Below, one piece after another: positions 14,013-64,000 of a stretch of 64,000 bases of DNA. Position 1 is the stretch's first letter; every line of letters starts with the position of its first letter. This DNA is from Chiloscyllium plagiosum (taxonomy: Eukaryota). The position numbers were made by a program, and so were the translations under genes. The DNA lies in assembly GCF_004010195.1 (NCBI RefSeq), contig NC_057731.1, forward strand, positions 6,524,477-6,588,476, written 5' to 3'. The notes beneath the pieces were generated by a model that was not told the origin of the DNA, searched no databases, and saw only the letters and a list, made by a program, of their open reading frames with translations.

Positions 14013-14164
14013 GGAGAAAGTGAGGACTGCAGATGCAGGAGATCAGAGCTTAAAAATGTGTTGCTGGAAAAGCGCAGCATCGGCTTATGCCTGAAACGTC
14101 GATTCTCCTGTTCCTTTGATGCTGCCTGACCTGCTGCGCTTTTCCAGCAACACATTTTTAAGCT
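14013..14164. mobile_element. Short Penelope-derived insert with 36-bp perfect inverted arms and 15-bp TSD
   Basis: Arms 14044-14079 / 14132-14167; flanks ctgtttcacctaata (13998-14012) and ctgtttaacctaata (14165-14179). Confidence 0.8.
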
Positions 14165-22439: not shown

Positions 22440-22596
22440 GAAGGACTGCAGATGCTGAAGAGTCAGAGTCAAGGAGTGTGTCACTGGAAAAGCACAGCAG
22501 GTCATTCCTGATGAAGGGCTTATGCTCGAAACATGAATTCTCCTGTTCCTTGAATTTTGCCTGACCGGCTGTGCTTTTCAGCACCACGCTTTGCAA
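22440..22596. mobile_element. Short Penelope-derived insert with inverted arms, hammerhead core and 15-bp TSD (2 mismatches)
   Basis: CTGATGAagggcttatgctcGAAAC at 22508-22532; ctcatcctataaaca (22425) / ctcatcctggaaaca (22597). Confidence 0.75.
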
Positions 22597-29309: not shown

Positions 29310-30214
29310 GTAATTATCAAAAGATGTTGGTGAATTTCTTCTTTCCCTGAACATGTAAACTTCTGCTTTCACCTGACAGTCTATCATCACCCATCTTTGA
29401 GAAGGTGGCTGCCAGGATGCGGTTAACAATTCTCTCTCCACTCTCCAAAAGCAAGGAAAGACTTAACATGAACCAAAAGTTGGACTTACTGATCTCAACC
29501 ATAGGGTCATATACCCCCTGTGTCAGGGTGGAGTACAGACCCTGTCAGATGCAGGTCTGTATTGACCAACAATGCTGTCTGCTGGGGGAGTGTGGTTTGG
29601 TCAGGCACATGATATCACTGAGTCTGATAAGCTTACTGTATGGCTCGTCTGTGAAGCTGTAAAAAGAATTCCATTTGCTGTGTTTCTGCCAGTGACTCCT
29701 ACCTACATTCTGTACCTTTCTTCTCACTATCGCCACAAGGGCAACTTTTGTACCATCTTCAAACTTCTTAAACATGCTCGCTGCATTTCTACATCACGGA
29801 TCCAATGCTGTTGCCTCTAATTTACCCATCGCTGAGATTTGGCTGATTGACTGTAGTTGCCAAGCCATCCTTCCTACCTTATTCAAACACTGGTACAACA
29901 TTAGCAGACTGGAGTCAGAGAGGGTTGAACAGTGATGTTCAGGGCCTCTGTTAATTCATTCCTTTGCACTCTTGCATACATTTCATCCAGGACTGCTGGT
30001 TTATCCAGTGCCAAATTCCTTAATATTCTGTCCATTACTCTATTTATTTAATGATCACAGCCCTTCTCCTTATTACACTGTCTGCTTTCTTGAACTCTCT
30101 GTTGTGAAGACAGATGGAAATGTGTAATTACTGACTATCCACATATAGCTTACCTTCCTGGTCTCCTGTGGATCTTATCCTTCCTTCAGTTATCCTCTTA
30201 TTTTTTATTTATTT

Positions 30215-30917
30215 AGAGTCATACATATGTACAGCACAGAAACAGATCTTTCAATCCAACTTGTCCATGCCCACCAAGTATCCTAAATTAAACTAGTCCT
30301 TTTTGCCAGCACTTGGCCCATATCCCTCTAAATCCTTCCTGTTCATGTACCCGTCCAGATGCCTTTTAAATGTTTTAATTGTACCAGCCTCCACTACTTC
30401 CTCCGGCAGCTCATTCCATACACATACCACTCGCTGCATGAGAAAGTTGCCCCTGAGGCCCCTTTTAAATCTTTTCCCTCTCACCCTAAACTTATGCCCT
30501 CTACTTCTGGACTCCCCCACCCCAGTGAAAAGACCTTGTCCATTTACCCTATCCATGCCCCTCATGATTTTATAAACCTCTATAAGGTCACCCCACAGCC
30601 TCTGATACTTCAGGGAAAACAGCCCCAGCCTATTCATCCTCTCCCCATAGCTCAAACCCTCCAACTCTGGCAAGATCCTTGTAAATCTTTTCTGAACCCT
30701 TTACAGTTTCACAACATCCTTCCTATAGCAGGGAGACCAGAATTGCAGGTAATATTCCAAAAGTGGCCCAACCAATGTCCTGTACAGCCGCAACATGACC
30801 TCCAACTCCTGTACTCAATACTCTGACCAATAAAGGAAAGCATACCAAACGCTGCCTTCACTATCCTAACTACCTGAGACTCCACATTCAAGGAACAATG
30901 AACCTGCACTCCAAGGT
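30215..30917 (-). mobile_element. CR1/HER1-like LINE 3' fragment
   Basis: ORF track 30293-30673 LEGLSYGERMNRLGLFSL...RGDLIEVYKIM-like. Confidence 0.9.
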
Positions 30918-31271
30918 CAGCAACACACCCCAGGAGTGTGTTTTTGTGTCAAACAGTGTATTTATAGCACATCGTTGAGTTGCTTTCATTTCAGTGGGGT
31001 TTTTTGGTGCTCTTTATGTTTTCTAATTTCACCTCTGTGCCCTTTCTATTCTACAATACGGCACTGAGCTTTAGGCATCTTATACCAACTTTCCTCTGTG
31101 CCTTGTCCCGCCCTAATTGCTCTTTGGGCACCTTGGCCCTCTAGATTCGAGAAATGTATATTTGACCAGAGCCCTATTTCCTCCTGGGAAAGCCTTTTGC
31201 CGATCGGACACTACTCAATCTTCAAGTTGCTCCTCTCAGGGCACTTTCAGCAAATCAGGTTTCAGCTGAGT

Positions 31272-31430
31272 AAAAACAGAGGTCGCTGGGAAACCTCAGC
31301 AGGTCCGGCAGCATCTGTGAAGAGAAATCAGAGTTAACGTTTCAGATCTGGTGAGCCCTCCTCAGAGGTGATGGTCTCTAGGAAAATGTCGGTTTATATG
31401 CAGAAGATGGAGGTCGCAGGGGTAAGGAGT
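31272..31430 (-). mobile_element. Penelope-like pLTR fragment with hammerhead-like core
   Basis: Minus strand CTGAGGAgggctcaccagatctGAAACGTTaac (31333-31365). Confidence 0.6.
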
Positions 31431-31534
31431 GCTAAGCAAAATTGGCCTTTCCACAAATCTAACTGAATCATGATCACTCTCATCAAAACACTCTCCACCT
31501 TCTAGATTCATTCCCTAAACTGAAGTCTGGGAGG

Positions 31535-32848
31535 CGACTAGATGTGTTGATGAAGTGGATGCAGTCTGAGTGGACTTCAGTAAGGTTTTTGGCAAGGTCT
31601 CACGTGTGAAACTGGTCAAGAAGCTAAGAACCTATGGTATCTGGGGCAAACTGGGTTCAAAATTGGCTTAGCGGCTGAAGGCAGAGGGTGATAATCGAAG
31701 GGTGCTTTTGTCGAAGGGAAACTGATGTTCAGTGGCGTGGAACAGGGTTCAGTGCTGGTCCTCTGGCTGTTTGTTATGTTCATTCATGATCTAGACATGA
31801 ATACAAGAGGTATGGTCATAAAGTTTGCAGATAAAGTTTGCAGATAACATGAAAATTGTTAGTTTGGTAAATAGGAGGGTGAGAGTCTTTGACTACAGGA
31901 TGATATAGATGGGCAGACAATGGCAAATGGAATTTAATCCTAAAATGTGTAAGATGGTGTATTTTGGGAGGACCCTTGGAAAAACTGAGGGTCAGAGGAA
32001 TGTTGGTGTTCGTGTCCAGGGATCATGCTGAGTGAGGTGAAGGCCCATTGTGTTCGAGGTGAGTTAAGTGGCATTGAAATGCCCATCAGCTGTGATTGAA
32101 TGGCGGAGTGGACTCGATGGATCGAATGGCCTTACTTCCACTCCTATTTCCAATGGTGTTATGGCCTTATTGATGGCAAAGGGACAAGTAGGTAAGGTAG
32201 TTAACAAAGCACATGCAATTGTTAGTCAAGGTATTGAATACAAGAGCAGGGAGGCTATGATGGAGCTATAAAAGATGTTAGTTATACCACAGCTGGAGTA
32301 CAGTGTTCAGTTCTAGTCACCACACTATAGGAAGGATGTGATCGCACTAAAGAGGTTGCAGTAGAGATTCATCAGGATGTTGCCCTGGCTAGAGCGCTTC
32401 CAGTGTGAAGAGAGACCAGATAGACTGGGGTTATTTTCTTTAGAGCAGAGAAGGCTGATTGAAGTGAACAAAATTTTGAAGGACATAAGGAAGAAAGGGA
32501 GGAATGATTCCCCTTTGTTCAGGGATCAGTAACTAGGGGGCATGGCATTGAGGTAAAGGGCAGGAAGTTCAGAGAGGGTTTAAGGAAAACAAAAATTCAC
32601 CCAGAGGGTTTTGAGTATGGATGTAAGTTAACTCGCTGAGCCAGTTTTGAGTATACTGGACCGCGATGTCTGTAAGGATGGTAGAAGCCAGAACTTTTAA
32701 GACATTGAAGAAGTGTTTAGATTTTCACTTGTAGCACCGTAGTACACAGATTGTGAGAGCTGGAAAATGGGACCAGTGAGGGAGGGGCTTGATGATCAGT
32801 TTAGCTCCATGGGCTTGAAGGGCCTCCTTTGTCCTGTAAACTCTATTG
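31535..32848 (+). mobile_element. Decayed CR1 LINE (RT region to 3' tail) with nested small inserts
   Basis: DFSKVF, QGSVLVL, KFADN, GIEYKSRE motifs. Confidence 0.8.
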
Positions 32849-34173
32849 CTGTCCCTTGTCTTGATAGGCTTGTTACATTTGTCTCATAAAGTTCTCCTGA
32901 ATGCATTTGAAGCCTTCCACACTCAGTGAGACTGACTACTTCCATGTAAATATTTGGGTCATCGAAATTCCTTACAGACACATTGTTTCTCTACATCTCT
33001 CAGGCATTGTCTTCAATATTTGCTCTTCGACCTTCCCCTCACTGCTTGGGGCTCTATATTACACTCCCAGCAGTGTCACCTCTTGTCTGTTCCTCAGCTC
33101 AACCCATTGACTCATTTGGTGCTCCTTCAGACATGTCATTCATCCTTACAGTTGCAAGTATTTACTTAACTAAGTTTGTGACCTTTCCCCCTCCTTTTAA
33201 AATTCCCTCACTCTGCTGTCTGAAAACTCTCTGAACCAAAAACGTTCAGCTGCCATTCGTGCCTGTTAAGACATGTTTCAGAAATAGTTACATGATCATA
33301 TGCACAAGTAACACGCCCTGTAATTTAGTTGTACTTGAGTGATTTGTTAAAGTAAACAGGTCTTTTTGATTTTGTGTCCAGTCAGTTTAAGAGGCTGATT
33401 GAATGGAGTTACTTTTGGAACTTGTAGGTTGCTGCACATCTATCAAGCCCCACCTCTTACGAGAAGCATTACTTCCAGGTTTCATTGCTTCTAGGTTTCA
33501 ATCCATACCTCCATCTCATCCGCGTCGTTTGTGAGCTTCCTTCAATTGAACTATGCGCCACTGATTAATGAAAAGCAACTTTGTTTTCTGTTTCCTGGCC
33601 TTTCTTTCCTTAACCTTCCAAGTGATTTATTTTTCTGCCATCTCTTCCAGTTTTACACTTTGCCCTTCCAAACCCTCACTCAGATACCCCTGCCAAGCGA
33701 GATATAAAACCCTTGCCAACAACACTGCTCAATGTCTCCATTGTGATCTTGGTTTCAACCCTTGGAAGGAGCAACCTTTCTAGACTCTGTCGGCTGTAAA
33801 TAGAGTCATAGGCTTAGACAGTACAGAAAGTGGTCCTTCAATCCAACACACTTGTGCCGCCCAGATATCCTAAATAAATCTAGTTCCATTTGCCAGCATG
33901 TGGCCCATATTCCCCTCAACCCTTTCTATTCATGTACCCATCCAGATGCCTTTTAAATGTTGTAATTGTAAGCACTTCCACTACTTCCTCTGGCAGCTGA
34001 TTCCATACACGTACCACCCTCTGTGTGAAAAAGTTGCCCCTTAGGTACATTTTAATTTTTCCCTCTAATCTTGCACCTATGCCCTCTAGTTTTGAACTCC
34101 CCTACCCTGGGGAAAAAAGACATTGGCTATTTACCCTAGCTGTGCCCCTCGAAATTTTATAAATCAATATAAG

Positions 34174-34367
34174 AGGAGAAAGTGAGGTCTGCAGATGCTG
34201 GAGATCAAAGTTGAAACTTTATTGCTGGAACAGCACAGCAGGTCAGGCAGCATCCAGGGAACAGGAGATTCGACGTTTCGGGCACAGGCCCTTCTTCTTC
34301 CTGAAGAAGGGCCTGTGCCCGAAACGTCGAATCTCCTGTTCCCTGGATGCTGCCTGACCTGCTGTGC
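34174..34367. mobile_element. Penelope-derived insert with 66-bp perfect palindrome and 14-bp perfect TSD
   Basis: Arms 34232-34297 / 34303-34368; taaatcaatataag at 34160-34173 and 34368-34381. Confidence 0.85.
34298..34331 (+). ncRNA. Putative minimal type-I hammerhead ribozyme (Penelope pLTR type)
   Basis: uuc-CUGAAGA-a-gggc(cugu)gccc-GAAAC-GUC-gaa: core intact, 4-bp stem II, palindromic ACGU stem III, 3-bp stem I. Confidence 0.7.
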
Positions 34368-35917
34368 TAAATCAATATAAGGTCAGCCTTCAACCACTCC
34401 AGGAATAGCCCCGGCCTATTCAGCCTCATCCTATCGCTCAAACCCTCTAATCCCAGCAAGATCATTGTAAATCTTTTCTGCACCCATTCAAGTTTCACAG
34501 CATCCTTTCTATAGCAGGCCAGAGAATTCATCCTTATGGCCTGTTCTCCCCCTGCACTGTCTCTCTGGTCATTCATTCAGCTATCCTCCTGCTTCCCTAG
34601 CACATCCACAGATTACTCCCTTTTGAGTTTCTGCTCTGTGATTTCTTTCACAGCCCCCTGCAGTCTGTGTGCAGAGCCACATCCCTCTTTCTATCTATTT
34701 CATTGGTTGGCCATGGCCCCTGGCTGCTTACTCCCGCTCCTGCACACTCAGAATGTTCTGCAGCAGCCTCAGTGACATGCCCTTGACCTTGACACTGGAT
34801 CAGCAAGATGTCATGCTGGAGTCACCTTTACCACAGCAAATACACCTTTCTGCTTCCCTAATCCTATCAGTATCGCTCCCCTGACCTTACTGTTCCATCC
34901 CTGCCCAGTTAAACCCATGATATACCAACCAGGTAGAGAGTAACATTCCTTTAGGATTATTTGTCTGATCTTCCTTCCTTGTCTGTGTTGAACAAACCGA
35001 TATCCATATATTGACTTAGGGAGCAAAAGATGTTGAGTCTTACAAGAGATTTATTGTCAATCTATCATTGGACGGGGAAATAATGCACTCCAGCCTCTGC
35101 GGTGCCCACCTCTCTTTGAAAGGACCAAGCTCTTAAACATAAAGTCAAGTGACAATCTGGTGGTCACCCCTTCCCTTGCTACTTGCTCACTCTAAACTTC
35201 CGAGTTTAACCCCCTGCCTAAAATTACCTTAACAAAAAGTAAACAGTGACACCCACTGTGTTACTCAATGATGTTACACCCTGAGATATTTTTGTGCTAA
35301 TCATATGTTTCTGTTACTCTTAATCCCCCTCCTCTTGCCTCTTCTCAACTCCACATTCTGTGCCCAAACAGGATGTTAATAGGAAGAGGATATTTCTATG
35401 TTAGCCAGTGTGTTGATGTGCAAACATTTATTGAAAAATTCCAAGCTGGAGAGGAAAATAATGGGATAATTCTTGTATCATTATTTCCCTGAAAGATCTG
35501 TCAGCAGTAAAAATACTAGCATTCTTAGGCATGTTCCATGCAGTTTGACATGCTGTCTTGTATGTCTCTTACATGTACATCTCACACTCAGTCTCTCCTA
35601 TGTCCTATGCCTTGCTGTCTCATCCTCCCAGTCTTGGACACATTCTTGGGCACTCATATGCCATCACACATTTGCAATGTTTCTTTCCACTCACTCATTC
35701 AGCTTTCACACTTACTCACACATGTACATTGTCACACTCCCTCTCTCATGCTTTCTCTCTTAAATTTTCTTACACATTCTCTCTCAGAAGTGAATATGTA
35801 ACGGAGCAGACCTTCATGGCTCAATAGTCTACTCATGCCCCGAGGTCCGTTTTCCTCCTTGTTCACTCGTATATGCCTGAGTAGAGAGGAACATCATATA
35901 GGGAAGAGACCAATTTA

Positions 35918-36075
35918 CAGAGTAACTTTGATTATCTGGTAATCAATTATCTGGCAAATTCAAAATGTCCCGATGCTCGGCTAAACTGTGTTATCCGGCA
36001 TTCAATTATCCGGAATTCGATTAACCAAGCAAAGTGCTCCCTGCCCATGTCCTTTGGATAATCGAGGTCCCTCTG
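35918..36075. mobile_element. MITE, probably Tc1/mariner-pogo (Tigger-like)
   Basis: Imperfect TIRs cagagtaactttgattatct / ggataatcgaggtccctctg; TA on the left flank; internal attatcygg repeats. Confidence 0.6.
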
Positions 36076-36264
36076 TCAATGTTTCTCAGTGTTTTACAGT
36101 AAAACAAACGTCCTGAAATGGGAATAGGGAAATTACGGAGTGAGGGTATTCTGTAAATGTAACAATAGACTTTTAAAGAGACACTGTTATTTTTCAAAAC
36201 CGTGATGCTTCTGAGTGAAGATCCCAATTGCAGTCTCATTGTGGAATGTTGTTCTTGTTTTTAG

Positions 36265-42941: not shown

Positions 42942-43062
42942 AGGAGAAAGTGAGGTCTGCAGATGCTGGAGATCAGAGATGGAAATGTGTTGCTGGAAAA
43001 GCGCAGCAGGTCAGGCAGCATCTAGGGAACAGGAGAATCGACATTTCGGGCATTAGCCCTGT
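42942..43062 (-). mobile_element. Short Penelope-derived insert with perfect 16-bp TSD
   Basis: ctaatatcaattcctg at 42926-42941 and 43063-43078; truncated inside hammerhead stem II. Confidence 0.85.
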
Positions 43063-47989: not shown

Positions 47990-49490
47990 TTGGGATTAAT
48001 TTGGGAGACAACGAGATATTATCCGAGAGTTGAAATCACTGCAGGGCCGTTTCCTTGTTGTTTTCCAATGGAAACGCCAGCCCAGCACAGCAACGGGGCG
48101 GAATCTGCGTTAACCCGGATAAATATTTGGAGTGGGCAGCTGCTGAGAATTAGACTTGTCTGTGAGTGATGCATATCCTGGTGACTTCATTGCCCCCCAC
48201 CCCCCCTTTCAGAGTGTCTTTGTTTGAGTGTGGAACATCGGTGTGAGACAAGCAAGTATCCTTTTACAGAGTAGGGGAGGCTCAACTCAGTGCTGACTAA
48301 TTCAGAAAATATGTGCACTGCGATTGGGGTTCCTGCGCACACTTGGGAACTGCTGTCTTTTGTAACCCCCCTTCTTCTCAGTGCCCCCCTCCCCTTGTCT
48401 GTCTGTCTGTCTGTGTGCTTTATTTCCTTCCCCAGTCTATAAGATGCACAGTGCTGTGTCTGAGAGGTAAGCACGCCCCCCAGCTCAGCTTGTGTTGTTG
48501 AGATTTGGAGGCAGTGTATCCAGCGCTCGATCGCCAGGGAAGGGAGGGTTTTTAAAGGGGGGGGGGGGGGTGGATTGGAAGGATCAACTCCAGGAGCGAT
48601 CACCAGGTCAGAGGGTAGGGCGGGGGGTGAAGAAACAAAACCGGAGAAGAGTTTTTGCAGCTCGCTGGGGGAGATGACTTCCCGAACGTGTAAGGGTCTC
48701 TCTCCCTGTCTCTGTCTGTTCTCTCTCGCTGTGGAGCTTGCAATTGTGGAGTGCTCCGGGCTTATTTGCAGGTTTGGGTGGAAATGTGATTTTGCAAAGT
48801 TTGTAATTTTGTTACTGACTGTCCAATTCTTGCAGTCCCTGTCCATTTCCTAGACTCTATGTGTGCGTGTCTAATCGAGTAGGGTGTGTGAGCATGGAGC
48901 TACTTTGAAAACTTCCAAGTTTTTTCCAAGATGCTCCGTGTCGACAGTGAAGACATTCCCACATTAATCCAGCTCTGTGCATGAGATTCACCCCCTCCCC
49001 TCCCCTCCCCTCCAAGTCGGTACTACAGTAATACTCCCAGAGGCTTCTGAACACATCTGAATCTGTTGTTGTGTGAAATGTGCCCCCCCCCCCCATGCAG
49101 TCTGCAACCTCCGAGGGCTCCCCTCCCGATTCCAGCTGATTGCAAGTCCCCAGTGCTGACTCAGCAGTAATACGCCCCCCTCCTCCATCCCACCCAACCC
49201 GAACCCTGGTCCTGCACACAGCCCTCAGCGATATCCAGCAAAGCAGGCACCAACCGGCTCGGAGTGAAAGCTGAGCTCCGTTTAGTTTCCCAGGCATCAG
49301 GTGGTTCAAGGTCGGTGGAAGGCTGTTTGTTCGGATTCACTGCTCGGTCAGAGTGGGAGGGACAGTGCAGACGGGCAGATCGGTCTGGGAGGGCAGGGTA
49401 ACTGTGAGAAACCACCGAGACAATGGCCAAGCAGAATGGAATCCTTCTGGACAGATGGCCAATAGCCAGTCAGGACCAATATAAATACTG
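47990..49490. promoter_or_regulatory. TE-free GC/CpG-enriched island with G/C runs and GC boxes; candidate internal ANK3 promoter
   Basis: GGGGCGG(A) near 48094, GGCGGGG near 48619, long G run near 48557, CCAAT at 49459 and 49476, TATAAATA at 49480; located just before the exon where short ANK3 isoforms start in mammals. Confidence 0.4.
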
Positions 49491-49538
49491 TCCTTCAGAA
49501 ACGGAGGCAGAAATCCCAAGGACAGGAGACTCTTCTGG

Positions 49539-52500
49539 CACTGTGGTACAGAGCACTGGGTTTCTGTGTCACTGTGGTACAGAGCACTGGGCTTCTGTGA
49601 CGGAGGCAGAAATCCCAAGGACAGGAGACTCTTCTGGCACTGTGGTACAGAGCACTGGGCTTCTGTGTCACTGGTACAGGAGCGCTGTGTTTCTGTGTCA
49701 CTGTGGTACAGAGCACTGGGCTTCTGTGTCACTGGTACAGGAGCGCTGTGTTTCTGTGTGACTGTGGTACAGAGCACTGGGCTACTGTGTCACTGTGGTA
49801 CAGAGCACTGGGCTTCTGTGTCACTGTGGTACAGGAGCGCTGTGTTTCTGTGTGACTGTGGTACAGAGCACTGGGTTTCTGTGTCACTGTGGTACAGAGC
49901 ACTGGGTTTCTGTGTCACTGTGGTACAGGAGCGCTGGGTTTCTGTGTCCCTGTGGTATAGGAGCACTGGGTGTCTGTGTCTGTGTGATACTGGAGCACTG
50001 GGTTTCTGTGTGACTGTGGTACAGGAGCACTGGGTTTCTGTGTGACTGTGGTACAGAACACTGGGTTTCTGTGTCACTGTGGTACAGAGCACTGGGTTTC
50101 TGTGTCACTGTGGTACAGGAGCGCTGTGTTTCTGTGTCACTGTGGTATAGGAGCACAGGGTGTCTGTCTGTGTGATACTGGAGCACTGGGTTTCTGTGTG
50201 ACTGTGGTACAGAATACTGGGTTTCTGTGTCACTGTGGTACAGAGCATTGGGTTTCTGTGTCACTGTGATACAGGAGCGCTGGGTTTCTGTGTCACTGTG
50301 ATACAGGAGCACTGGGTTTCTGTGTCACTGGTACAGGAGCCCTGGGTTTCTGTGTCACTGTGATACAGGAGCGCTGGGTTTCTGTGTCACTGTGGTACAG
50401 GAGCACTGTGTTTCTGTGTCACTGTGGTACAGGAGAACTGTGTTTCTGTGTCACTGTGAAAAAGGAGCGCTGGGTTTCTGTGTCACTGTGGTACAGGAGC
50501 ACTGGGCCTCTGTGTCCGTGTGATACAGGAGCGCTGGGTTTCTGTGTGACTGTCGTACAGGAGCACTGGGTTTCTGTGTCACTGTGGTACAGGAGCACTG
50601 TGTTTCTGTGTCACTGTGATACAGGAGCGCAGGGTTCTGTGTCACTGTGGTACAGGAGCACATGGTTTCTGTGTCACTGTGGTACAGGAGCACTGTGTTT
50701 CTGTGTGACTGTGGTACTGGAGCACTGTGTTTCTGTGTCACTGTGGTACAGGAGCACTGGGTTTCTGTGTCACTGTGGAAAAGGAGCGCTGTGTTTCTGT
50801 GTCATTGTGGTACAGGAGCCCAGTGTTTCTGTGTCACTGTGGTACAGGAGCGCTGGGTTTCTGTGTCATTGTGGTACATGAGCACTGTGTTTCTGTGTCA
50901 CTGTGGTACAGGAGCACTGGGTTTTGTGTCACTGTGGTACAGGAGCACTGTGTTTCTGTGTGACTGTGGTACAGGAGCACTGTGTTTCTGTGTGACTGTG
51001 GTACAGGAGCACTGGGTTTCTGTGTCACTGTGGAAAAGGAGCGCTGTGTTTCTGTGTCACTATGGTAGAGGAGCACTGGGCTTCAGTGTCACTGTGGTAC
51101 AGGAGCACTGGGTTTCTGTGTCACTGTGGTACAGGAGCACTGGGTTTCTGTGTCACTGTGATACAGGAGCCCTGGATTTCTGTGTCACTGTGATACAGGA
51201 ACACTGGGTTTCTGTGTCACTGTGGTACAGGAGCGCTGGGTTTCTGTGTCACTGTGGTACAGGAGCCCTGGGTTTCTGTGTCACTGTGAGACAGGAGCGC
51301 TGGGTTTCTGTGTCACTGTGGTACATGAGCACTGTGTTTCTGTGTCACTGTGGTATGGGAGCACTGTGTTTCTGTGTCACTGTGGTATGGGAGCGCTGGG
51401 TTTCTGTGTCACTGTGGTACAGGAGCCCTGGGTTTCTGTGTCACTGTGATACAGAAGCGCTGGGTTTCTGTGTGACTGTGGTACAGAGGAGCTTGGTTTC
51501 TGTGTCACTGTGACACTGGAGCCCTGGGTTTCTGTGTCACTATGGTACTGGAGCGCTGGATTACTGTGTCACTGTGATACTGGAGCCCTGGGTTTCTGTG
51601 TCACTATGGTACTGGAGCGCTGGATTACTGTGTCACTGTGATACTGGAGCCCTGGGTTTCTGTGTCACTATGGTACTGGAGCGCTGGATTACTGTGTCAC
51701 TGTGATACTGGAGCCCTGGGTTTCTGTGTCACTATGGTACTGGAGCGCTGGATTACTGTGTCACTGTGATACTGGAGCCCTGGGTTTCTGTGTCACTATG
51801 GTACTGGAGCGCTGGATTACTGTGTCACTGTGATACTGGAGCCCTGGGTTTCTGTGTCACTATGGTACTGGAGCGCTTGGTTTCTGTGTCACTGTGACAC
51901 TGGAGCCCTGGGTTTCTGTGTCACTATGGTACTGGAGCGCTGGATTACTGTGTCACTGTGATACTGGAGCCCTGGGTTTCTGTGTCACTGTGGTACAGGA
52001 GCACTGTGTTTCTGTGTCACTGTGGTACAGGAGCCATGGGTTTCTGTGTCACTGTGATACAGGAGCGCTGGGTTTCTGTGCCACTGTGATACAGGAGCAC
52101 TGTGTTTCTGTGTCACTGTGGTACAGGAGCGCTGGGTTTCTGTGTCACTGTGGTACAGGAGCCCAGGGTTTCTGTGTCACTGTGATACAGGAGCCCAGGG
52201 TTTCTGTGTCACTGTGGTGCAGGAGCGCTGGGTTTCTGTGTCACTGTGATACAGGAGCGCTGGGTTTCTGTGTCACTGTGATCCAGGAACACTGGGATTC
52301 TGTGTCACTGTGGTACAGGAGCACTGTGTTTCTGTTTCACTGTGGTACAGGGGAGCTGGGTTTCTGTGTTACTGTGATACAGTAGAGCTGGGTTTCTGTG
52401 TCACTGTGGTACAGGAGCGCTTGGTTTCTTTGTCACTGTGGTACAGGAGCGCTGGGTTTCTGTGTCACTGTGATACAGAAGCGCTGGGTTTCTGTGTGAC

Positions 52501-63717: not shown

Positions 63718-64000
63718 GGAGAAAGTGAGGACTGCAGATGCTGGAGATCACAGTCGAGAGTGTTTTCCTGGAAAAGCACAGCAGGTCAGGCAGCATCCGA
63801 GGAGCAGGAGAGTCGACGTTTCAGGGATAAGCCCTTCATCAGTCCTCAGCAAAGGCCTCACCTTCATTCCCCTATGCTCCCAAATCAAGGAATTCAACAC
63901 ACGTTGTGACATTCAACGCTTCTTCCGCAAGCTCATTCCTGATGAAGGCCTTATGCCCAAAACGTCAGTTACCTGATGAAGGAGCAGTGCTCTGAAAGCT
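63718..64000. mobile_element. Composite Penelope-like fragment: inverted pLTR, ORF N-terminal piece, pLTR, then a second-family pLTR (runs off the window)
   Basis: SVLSKGLTFIPL..EFNTRCDIQRFFRK; hammerhead cores at 63815-63842 (-), 63939-63966 (+) and 63973-64000 (+). Confidence 0.75.

What the first reader, a model, noticed from the sequence alone, without database searches (positions are those of the whole stretch)
34160..34381. Young Penelope-derived mini-insert: 66-bp perfect palindrome carrying an intact hammerhead ribozyme core, sense to the ANK3 pre-mRNA
Seen: a 194-bp insert between perfect 14-bp TSDs inside an older CR1 copy. Arms 34232-34297 and 34303-34368 are exact reverse complements around a 5-nt loop. 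The right arm reads uuc-CUGAAGA-agggc-cugu-gccc-GAAAC-GUC-gaa. Known: Penelope-like element pLTRs carry minimal type-I hammerheads with a palindromic helix III (here ACGU) thought to cleave as dimers, and Penelope copies often have an inverted partial pLTR. Inference: the ribozyme is transcribed in the ANK3 intron, but the 66-bp hairpin made by the inversion would sequester it. The inverted arm could thus act as a built-in safety catch that lets such inserts survive in genes, while also creating an ADAR/Dicer substrate.
Basis: partly seen in the sequence, partly recalled or inferred. Interest (0 to 1): 0.7.

Follow-up and report, generated by a model that had tools for sequence, protein, structure and literature searches.

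The report
Back-to-back Penelope stubs in shark intron
This 194-base mirror-image insert in an ankyrin gene's intron is one of about 1,800 near-identical young footprints of a Penelope-type jumping gene in this genome; it is likely made when the element copies the short front end of its RNA from both sides of the DNA cut, so the hairpin is likely a by-product of insertion rather than a safety catch on its ribozyme.

Summary
Observation confirmed: 14-nt target duplication, 66-nt perfect inverted repeat, minimal-hammerhead motif on the strand of the ankyrin exons. It is not a one-off: 1,794 such centres and 15,196 core motifs occur genome-wide, and the same end follows an RT + GIY-YIG frame of Neptune/Nematis type. 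In the first 50 palindromes of contig 1, all 50 have exactly one arm with the 35-nt 'tail', and 46 of 46 classifiable pair it with a tail-less end; centres fall at one 5' boundary with an excess of G, as a cap would leave. Best reading: priming from both target nicks at two fixed start sites. Two subfamilies show that an inverted junction can also be recopied whole. The safety-catch idea is unsupported: about half of 79 loci have no inverted arm, and such ribozymes are reported inactive as monomers. The layout is known (PMC3846280, PMC8557442); this scan noted it before on other DNA, including this genome.

The parts
34160..34173 (+). Left target-site duplication (14 nt)
   Evidence: family duplications were 11-17 nt in 40 of 48 scored loci
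34174..34297 (-). Long arm: pLTR stub, unit positions 0-123 (0 = G5 of the hammerhead core); core broken at the junction
   Evidence: 100% identical to the family reference over 0-121
34174..34208 (-). 35-nt 'tail' present on one arm only; its end is the inferred first RT start site
   Evidence: 50 of 50 palindromes have exactly one tail arm; tail described in PMC8557442 and PMC11167929
34218..34223 (-). AATAAA of the pLTR, antisense to the ankyrin gene; the sense arm stops before it
   Evidence: poly(A)-bearing loose ends behind unit position 88 in run X21
34298..34302 (.). 5-nt loop = head-to-head junction at the family's 5' boundary
   Evidence: 25 junction types in 50 copies, all within 10 nt upstream of position 0
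34298..34331 (+). Minimal type-I hammerhead motif: helix I 3 bp (34298-34300/34329-34331), core 34301-34307, helix II 34309-34320, palindromic ACGU 34324-34327, predicted cut after 34328
   Evidence: sequence; folds; features as in PMC4209133; no Rfam match
34303..34368 (+). Short arm: pLTR stub, unit positions 0-65, shorter than the usual 79-95; last T shared with the right duplication
34368..34381 (+). Right target-site duplication (14 nt)
33801..34518 (-). Older LINE fragment (CR1-like by recalled C-terminus) interrupted by the insert
29331..36264 (+). Approximate ankyrin-gene intron holding the insert (bounds are those of the flanking stop-to-stop segments)

Best explanation
The insert is a young, protein-free footprint of a Penelope-like retrotransposon, two stubs of the element's hammerhead-bearing end joined head to head between target duplications, likely made when both cut strands of the target each prime copying of the short front end of the element's RNA. 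Shown: family membership, copy number, the two fixed 3' ends (about 87 and about 123), the one-tail-per-insert rule and the fixed 5' boundary 6 nt before the core. Inferred: (1) the RNA starts, capped, at an initiator-like site just before the hammerhead; (2) RT starts internally at the two sites, so a transcript from one pLTR yields only 95-130 nt of cDNA; (3) one target strand primes at the tail site and the other at the tail-less site; (4) the two cDNAs meet at the RNA's 5' end and are joined through 0-6 nt of microhomology, fold-back or added bases; in this copy the second arm began early, at position 65. The templates were uncleaved RNA, since both arms run through the predicted cut. In the ankyrin pre-mRNA the 66-bp stem is predicted to bury the ribozyme, which would be nearly inactive alone anyway; the insert is most likely neutral.
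For: Family: 40 of 40 scored best matches 96-100% identical, 1,161 candidates; 1,794 palindromic centres, control 0; 15,196 core 14-mers, control 6. Partner: 649-aa open frame with RVT_1 (E 2.5e-6) and GIY-YIG (E 3.2e-4), both just under Pfam's cut-offs, then this pLTR at 95% (L352); GIY-YIG above cut-off in L141; 27 of 30 thumb/EN loci carry the pLTR at >=95%. End rule: 50 of 50 with one tail arm, 46 of 46 classifiable tail + tail-less, none tail/tail or tail-less/tail-less, against 48% expected from solos (10 tail, 7 tail-less of 17), p 3e-15. No polarity at the centre: tail arm reaches further 5' in 18, the other in 21, equal in 11 of 50, so neither arm is always a subset of the other. Where one arm lost more than 25 nt at the centre it was the tail arm in 7 of 8 (read by eye; p 0.035). 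5' boundary: 17 of 17 short solos start at -11 to -2; G precedes it in 26 of 46 non-C copies (28% expected, p 4e-5), in 19 of 26 without target microhomology but 7 of 20 with it; untemplated G is read as a cap mark for L1 (PMC9341517, passages). Youth: 46 arm-only differences in 8,256 compared bases. In vitro precedent: two adjacent RT starts bounding the tail, both strands cut and extended, uncleaved RNA used (PMC11167929).
Against: Two subfamilies inherit one inverted junction: 56 of 72 copies of a one-letter variant share one centre, 9 of them cut short inside the inverted part (counted by eye), and 20 of 20 top EN matches share one junction, 7 with the same foreign flank; so palindromes are not always built anew and this copy could be a recopy. 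In the first subfamily the variant is on the tail arm but absent from the other arm in 11 of 11 informative copies, which a single sense RNA copied twice does not explain. Four junction types make up 27 of 50 centres. The cap and start site are inferred from DNA only; run X21 showed no pile-up of read starts or ends. The 50 palindromes were chosen by a pattern that demands both arms near the centre, all on one contig. No full-length intact element was seen; several candidates hold runs of N.
Confidence: 0.62

Rival explanations
1. Recopying of an existing inverted copy as a unit: a read-through RNA holding both arms is primed once at the tail site and copied through the centre; the far end is set at the tail-less site on the new DNA or by truncation (here at 65).
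For: Shown for two subfamilies; the window's exact centre recurs in L002-L004 and L007; off-site short arms are common in the recopied subfamily (5 of 16); inverted-pLTR units giving rise to new insertions are described in PMC3846280 (passages).
Against: 25 centre types in 50 copies, 19 seen once; the same centre occurs with different haplotypes (L007 versus L002-L004); asymmetric centres occur in both orientations to the tail; it does not explain how centres first arise at one boundary.
Confidence: 0.15
2. Self-priming (snap-back): one cDNA reaches the RNA end, folds back on itself and copies itself, as proposed for head-to-head pLTRs (on an antisense template) in PMC3846280.
For: The commonest centre (10 of 50) is a perfect hairpin tip; in 4 of 50 copies both arms share a variant not seen in the others.
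Against: The non-tail arm reaches further 5' than the tail arm in 21 of 50; in L156, L165, L172, L178, L300, L308, L309 each arm holds sequence the other lacks; solos with either 3' end show the same G excess at the 5' boundary, pointing to a sense template. Later trimming of palindrome centres could blur this test.
Confidence: 0.15
3. Selected safety catch: the inverted arm persists because it silences a ribozyme that would otherwise cut host pre-mRNA.
For: Folding predicts full sequestration; tandem hammerhead repeats are under-represented in Xenopus introns (bioRxiv 10.64898/2026.07.22.740005, passages).
Against: 38 of 79 loci are solo or direct with a free motif; inversion follows a strict end rule that points to the insertion mechanism; monomers did not cleave in vitro (PMC4209133); this copy's helix I is down to 3 bp, predicted pairing 0.11-0.17 even without the other arm.
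Confidence: 0.06

Closest known systems
EN+ Penelope-like element insertions with inverted pLTR, one-sided tail and TSD (Pen2a_Av of Adineta vaga, PMC3846280; general scheme in PMC8557442 Fig. 2; passages read)
   Same: Head-to-head pLTRs, tail on one end only, target duplication, palindromic junction, initiator-like motif in the pLTR.
   Different: No ORF between the arms; about 200 nt; about 1,800 near-identical copies; junction pinned to the 10 nt before the hammerhead core.
PAc (Poseidon of Anolis carolinensis) in vitro, PMC11167929 (main text read)
   Same: Two adjacent RT start sites bounding the tail, both strands cut and extended, uncleaved RNA used, hammerhead near the 5' end.
   Different: Here the partner has the CX2-5CxxC linker of Neptune/Nematis; the text I read does not report that one insertion uses one site at each end, nor a capped 5' boundary.
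Minimal type-I hammerheads of metazoan PLEs, PMC4209133 (results and discussion read)
   Same: Full core, extra base between 9 and 10.1, G10.1-C11.1, palindromic 15.2-16.2 without loop 3; the paper also notes pairs on opposite strands 100-700 bp apart in Schistosoma.
   Different: Helix I is 3 bp in this copy (4-5 bp there); activity untested here.
Non-LTR retrozymes (bioRxiv 10.64898/2026.07.22.740005, part 1 of 5 and passages)
   Same: Non-autonomous, pLTR-derived, type-I hammerhead.
   Different: Retrozymes are head-to-tail tandems; this copy is head-to-head. Some relatives in this genome are tandem deletion derivatives.

Membership tests
EN+ Penelope-like element (Neptune/Nematis type) | Same pLTR directly follows an RT + C-terminal GIY-YIG frame | tested here: met
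   L352; L141; 27 of 30 loci
EN+ Penelope-like element (Neptune/Nematis type) | CX2-5CxxC linker and two cysteines between GIY and YIG | tested here: met
   read in the translations; definition from PMC8557442
EN+ Penelope-like element (Neptune/Nematis type) | RT phylogeny placing it in Neptune rather than Nematis | not tested
EN+ Penelope-like element (Neptune/Nematis type) | Inverted pLTR with a 30-40 nt tail on one end, and a target duplication | tested here: met
   50 of 50; duplications in 40 of 48
Minimal type-I hammerhead | Core C3-A9, G12-A14, A15.1-U16.1, C17; extra base after 9; G10.1-C11.1; palindromic 15.2-16.2 | tested here: met
   in 12 older relatives these places are kept in 75-100% of rows while N7 and loop II vary
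Minimal type-I hammerhead | Helix I of 4-5 bp | tested here: not met
   3 bp in this copy, 4 bp in intact family copies
Minimal type-I hammerhead | Match to an Rfam hammerhead model | tested here: not met
   none at E <= 10; the models may not cover a form without helix III (inference)
Minimal type-I hammerhead | Self-cleavage as a dimer | not testable with these tools
   cofolding gave the ACGU dimer within about 2 kcal/mol of the best fold, without helix I; not a test of activity
Non-LTR retrozyme | Two or more head-to-tail units each with a full hammerhead | tested here: not met
   arms are inverted and one core is broken
MITE / DNA transposon | Terminal inverted repeats at both ends and a short fixed duplication | tested here: not met
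   ends unequal (tail on one), duplication 11-17 nt, centre variable, partner encodes RT
microRNA precursor | Rfam score above the family's gathering score | tested here: not met
   best 57.7 against 97 bits; hits follow the perfect stem

The most novel reading that the evidence does not exclude
Penelope-like elements integrate with two RTs on opposite target strands, one always starting at the tail site and the other at the tail-less site, on a capped RNA that begins six bases before the hammerhead; this one rule would explain the one-sided tail, the head-to-head pLTRs, the flood of 95-130 nt solo ends and why only tandem copies can transpose in full, and inverted products can then be recopied as units with flanking DNA.
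Probability: 0.5. Interest if true: 0.6.

Novelty: new member of a known kind. Interest (0 to 1): 0.32.

Why it matters
The insert itself is probably a neutral passenger. Its value is as one of thousands of nearly unmutated products of a retroelement class whose inverted-repeat formation is called undefined in PMC8557442 and left open in PMC3846280. The counts here (one tail per insert, 46 of 46 mixed ends, a cap-like G at a fixed 5' boundary, junctions recopied with flank) turn that into predictions that the published in vitro PAc system could test. Searches that found no paper stating this rule: (open-licence library only; two key papers, Lunse 2017 and Arkhipova 2006, were not seen, and no supplements were read). 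The scan's own agents reached a similar reading on other shark DNA, which lowers its novelty within the scan and is not independent support.

Tried and rejected
Rfam: no hammerhead match; microRNA hits are stem artefacts. One fixed palindromic master for the whole family: rejected by 25 centre types in 50. Centres at the predicted ribozyme cut: none of 50; one copy lacks 8 nt right after the cut in both arms (L052). A self-standing hammerhead-less source family: only about 7 of 55 matches lack the inverted partner (by eye), so that class is better read as one recopied composite; one search was void because my pattern excluded the usual letters. First two candidates for a full element had no long frame or a run of N; 30 loci from the 5' coding side were all deletion derivatives. 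RNA: no RNA holder listed; X22 laid nothing, X21 laid 2,634 and 468 reads from many copies with no start/end pile-up, and A>G/T>C changes could not be told from copy differences. Empty site in two other samples: no bridging contig, no verdict. Runs of organisms B and C hold related ends that differ at several places; the orthologous site was not resolved. Look-up of earlier notes by sequence gave nothing. Rows dropped: two loci without a junction (both scored); three loci failing the identity filter (L144 is inverted and L173 solo, L163 a chance match); copies with C at -7 were excluded by design.

Full report
Numbering. Unit position 0 is G5 of the hammerhead core (window 34303 on the right arm, 34297 on the left). 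T = an arm ending at 112-125 (with the tail); S = an arm ending at 78-97.

1. Observation. The 14-nt duplication, the 66-nt perfect inverted repeat and the 5-nt loop are exactly as stated; the fold is far beyond shuffles. The + strand carries a full minimal-hammerhead letter set with a predicted cut after 34328; the minus strand core is broken; helix I is only 3 bp here. Ankyrin-repeat exons on + flank the site. ANK3 and CR1 are recalled labels. Rfam has no hammerhead match.

2. It is a large young family. The insert's 40 scored best matches are 96-100% identical. The centre pattern occurs 1,794 times, the core 14-mer 15,196 times. Of 79 consecutive core-bearing loci in the first 21 Mb of contig 1, 38 were inverted, 26 short solos, 12 longer direct copies, 3 unscored. 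Arms of one insert differ at 46 of 8,256 compared bases. The same end follows a 649-aa open frame with RT and GIY-YIG matches (L352), with the CX4CxxC linker that PMC8557442 assigns to Neptune/Nematis.

3. Anatomy of the family. In the first 50 tight palindromes of contig 1, every one has exactly one T arm; 46 pair it with an S arm, 4 with an off-site end; there is no T/T or S/S. Solos are 10 T and 7 S of 17, so independent choice would give 48% mixed; p = 3e-15. The stretch between the two ends is 35 nt, the 'tail' of the literature; in the anole element two RT start sites bound the tail and both target strands are cut and extended (PMC11167929). All 50 centres lie within 10 nt upstream of position 0, in 25 types, and 17 of 17 short solos start at -11 to -2. 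The boundary sits in an initiator-like motif (consensus recalled). Among 46 non-inverted-looking copies that start at -6 without the templated C, 26 have G in front (28% expected; p 4e-5), concentrated in those without target microhomology (19 of 26 against 7 of 20; Fisher p 0.016). An untemplated G is taken as a cap mark for L1 (PMC9341517); pLTR promoters with initiators are described in PMC2377424 and PMC3846280. Both arms run through the predicted cut, so the templates were uncleaved. In 34 of 50 palindromes both strands keep an intact core; the window's copy is one of the kind with only one.

4. Mechanism. The simplest account is double priming: each nicked target strand primes RT, one at the tail site and one at the tail-less site, both run to the capped 5' end and are joined there. 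Against plain snap-back of the first cDNA, the S arm reaches further 5' in 21 of 50, and in seven loci each arm has sequence the other lacks, the T arm being the shortened one in 7 of 8 such cases, as expected if it trails the S-primed copy on one RNA. Against this being the whole story, two subfamilies recopy one junction: a variant-marked centre in 56 of 72 copies (a further 48 of 55 without the variant; both by eye), and an EN-bearing composite in 20 of 20 top matches, 7 of which, plus L144, carry the same foreign flank, at least 280 nt long in all but L276. In the first, the marker is on the T arm and absent from the other arm in 11 of 11 informative copies, so there the second end is set on the new DNA or on a second RNA. 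PMC3846280 proposes self-priming on an antisense template and leaves the matter open. For the window's copy: T arm 0-123, second arm -5 to 65 with 1 nt shared with the duplication, a centre seen in 1 of the 50 unbiased copies and in three further top matches.

5. Function in the intron. The full insert is predicted to bury the core from G5 on. That is a physical consequence, not evidence of selection: half the family lacks an inverted arm, minimal hammerheads did not cleave as monomers (PMC4209133), and this copy's helix I is weak. One point may matter more for the host: the pLTR's AATAAA (unit 74-79) has poly(A)-bearing loose ends just behind position 88 in 33 reads of run X21 (number of source loci unknown), and the sense arm here stops at 65, before it. 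This is one copy and no test. Editing, small RNAs and the empty site stayed unresolved.

6. Standing. The layout is known; the copy is a new member of a known kind. My searches found no paper stating the one-site-per-end rule, but the library is partial and Lunse 2017 was seen only as cited in a review (PMC6765202, passages). After I had formed this reading, the scan's index returned 158 notes in at least 16 genomes with the same words, the 8 shown giving similar conclusions; they are unchecked and not independent. Interest 0.32.

Noticed in passing
window 14014-14161, 22442-22583, 63719-63966, 42944-43060: Older relatives of the same end (78-88% identical); the first three are also head-to-head, with the tail on one arm; the last is a solo on the minus strand.
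   Followed up: partly
L260-L279, L144: An inverted composite holding the GIY-YIG region shares one junction in 20 of 20 top matches; 7 of them and the mini-copy L144 carry the same foreign flank: transduction by recopying.
   Followed up: partly
L220-L232, L240-L259: About 100 copies share one centre in which the tail arm lacks positions -2 to 49; in over half a one-letter change breaks AATAAA on that arm only.
   Followed up: yes
L012, L080-L139: Non-autonomous tandem deletion derivatives with units of about 197-205 and 320 nt, each unit with a hammerhead: retrozyme-like.
   Followed up: partly
L109:1603 (unit position 88): 33 reads of RNA run X21 carry poly(A) just behind the tail-less end, about 12 nt after AATAAA: the pLTR signal seems to be used in at least one copy.
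   Followed up: no
L052:centre: Both arms lack the same 8 nt starting exactly at the predicted ribozyme cut.
   Followed up: no
window 48800-52400: Long low-complexity tandem repeat giving several repetitive open frames.
   Followed up: no
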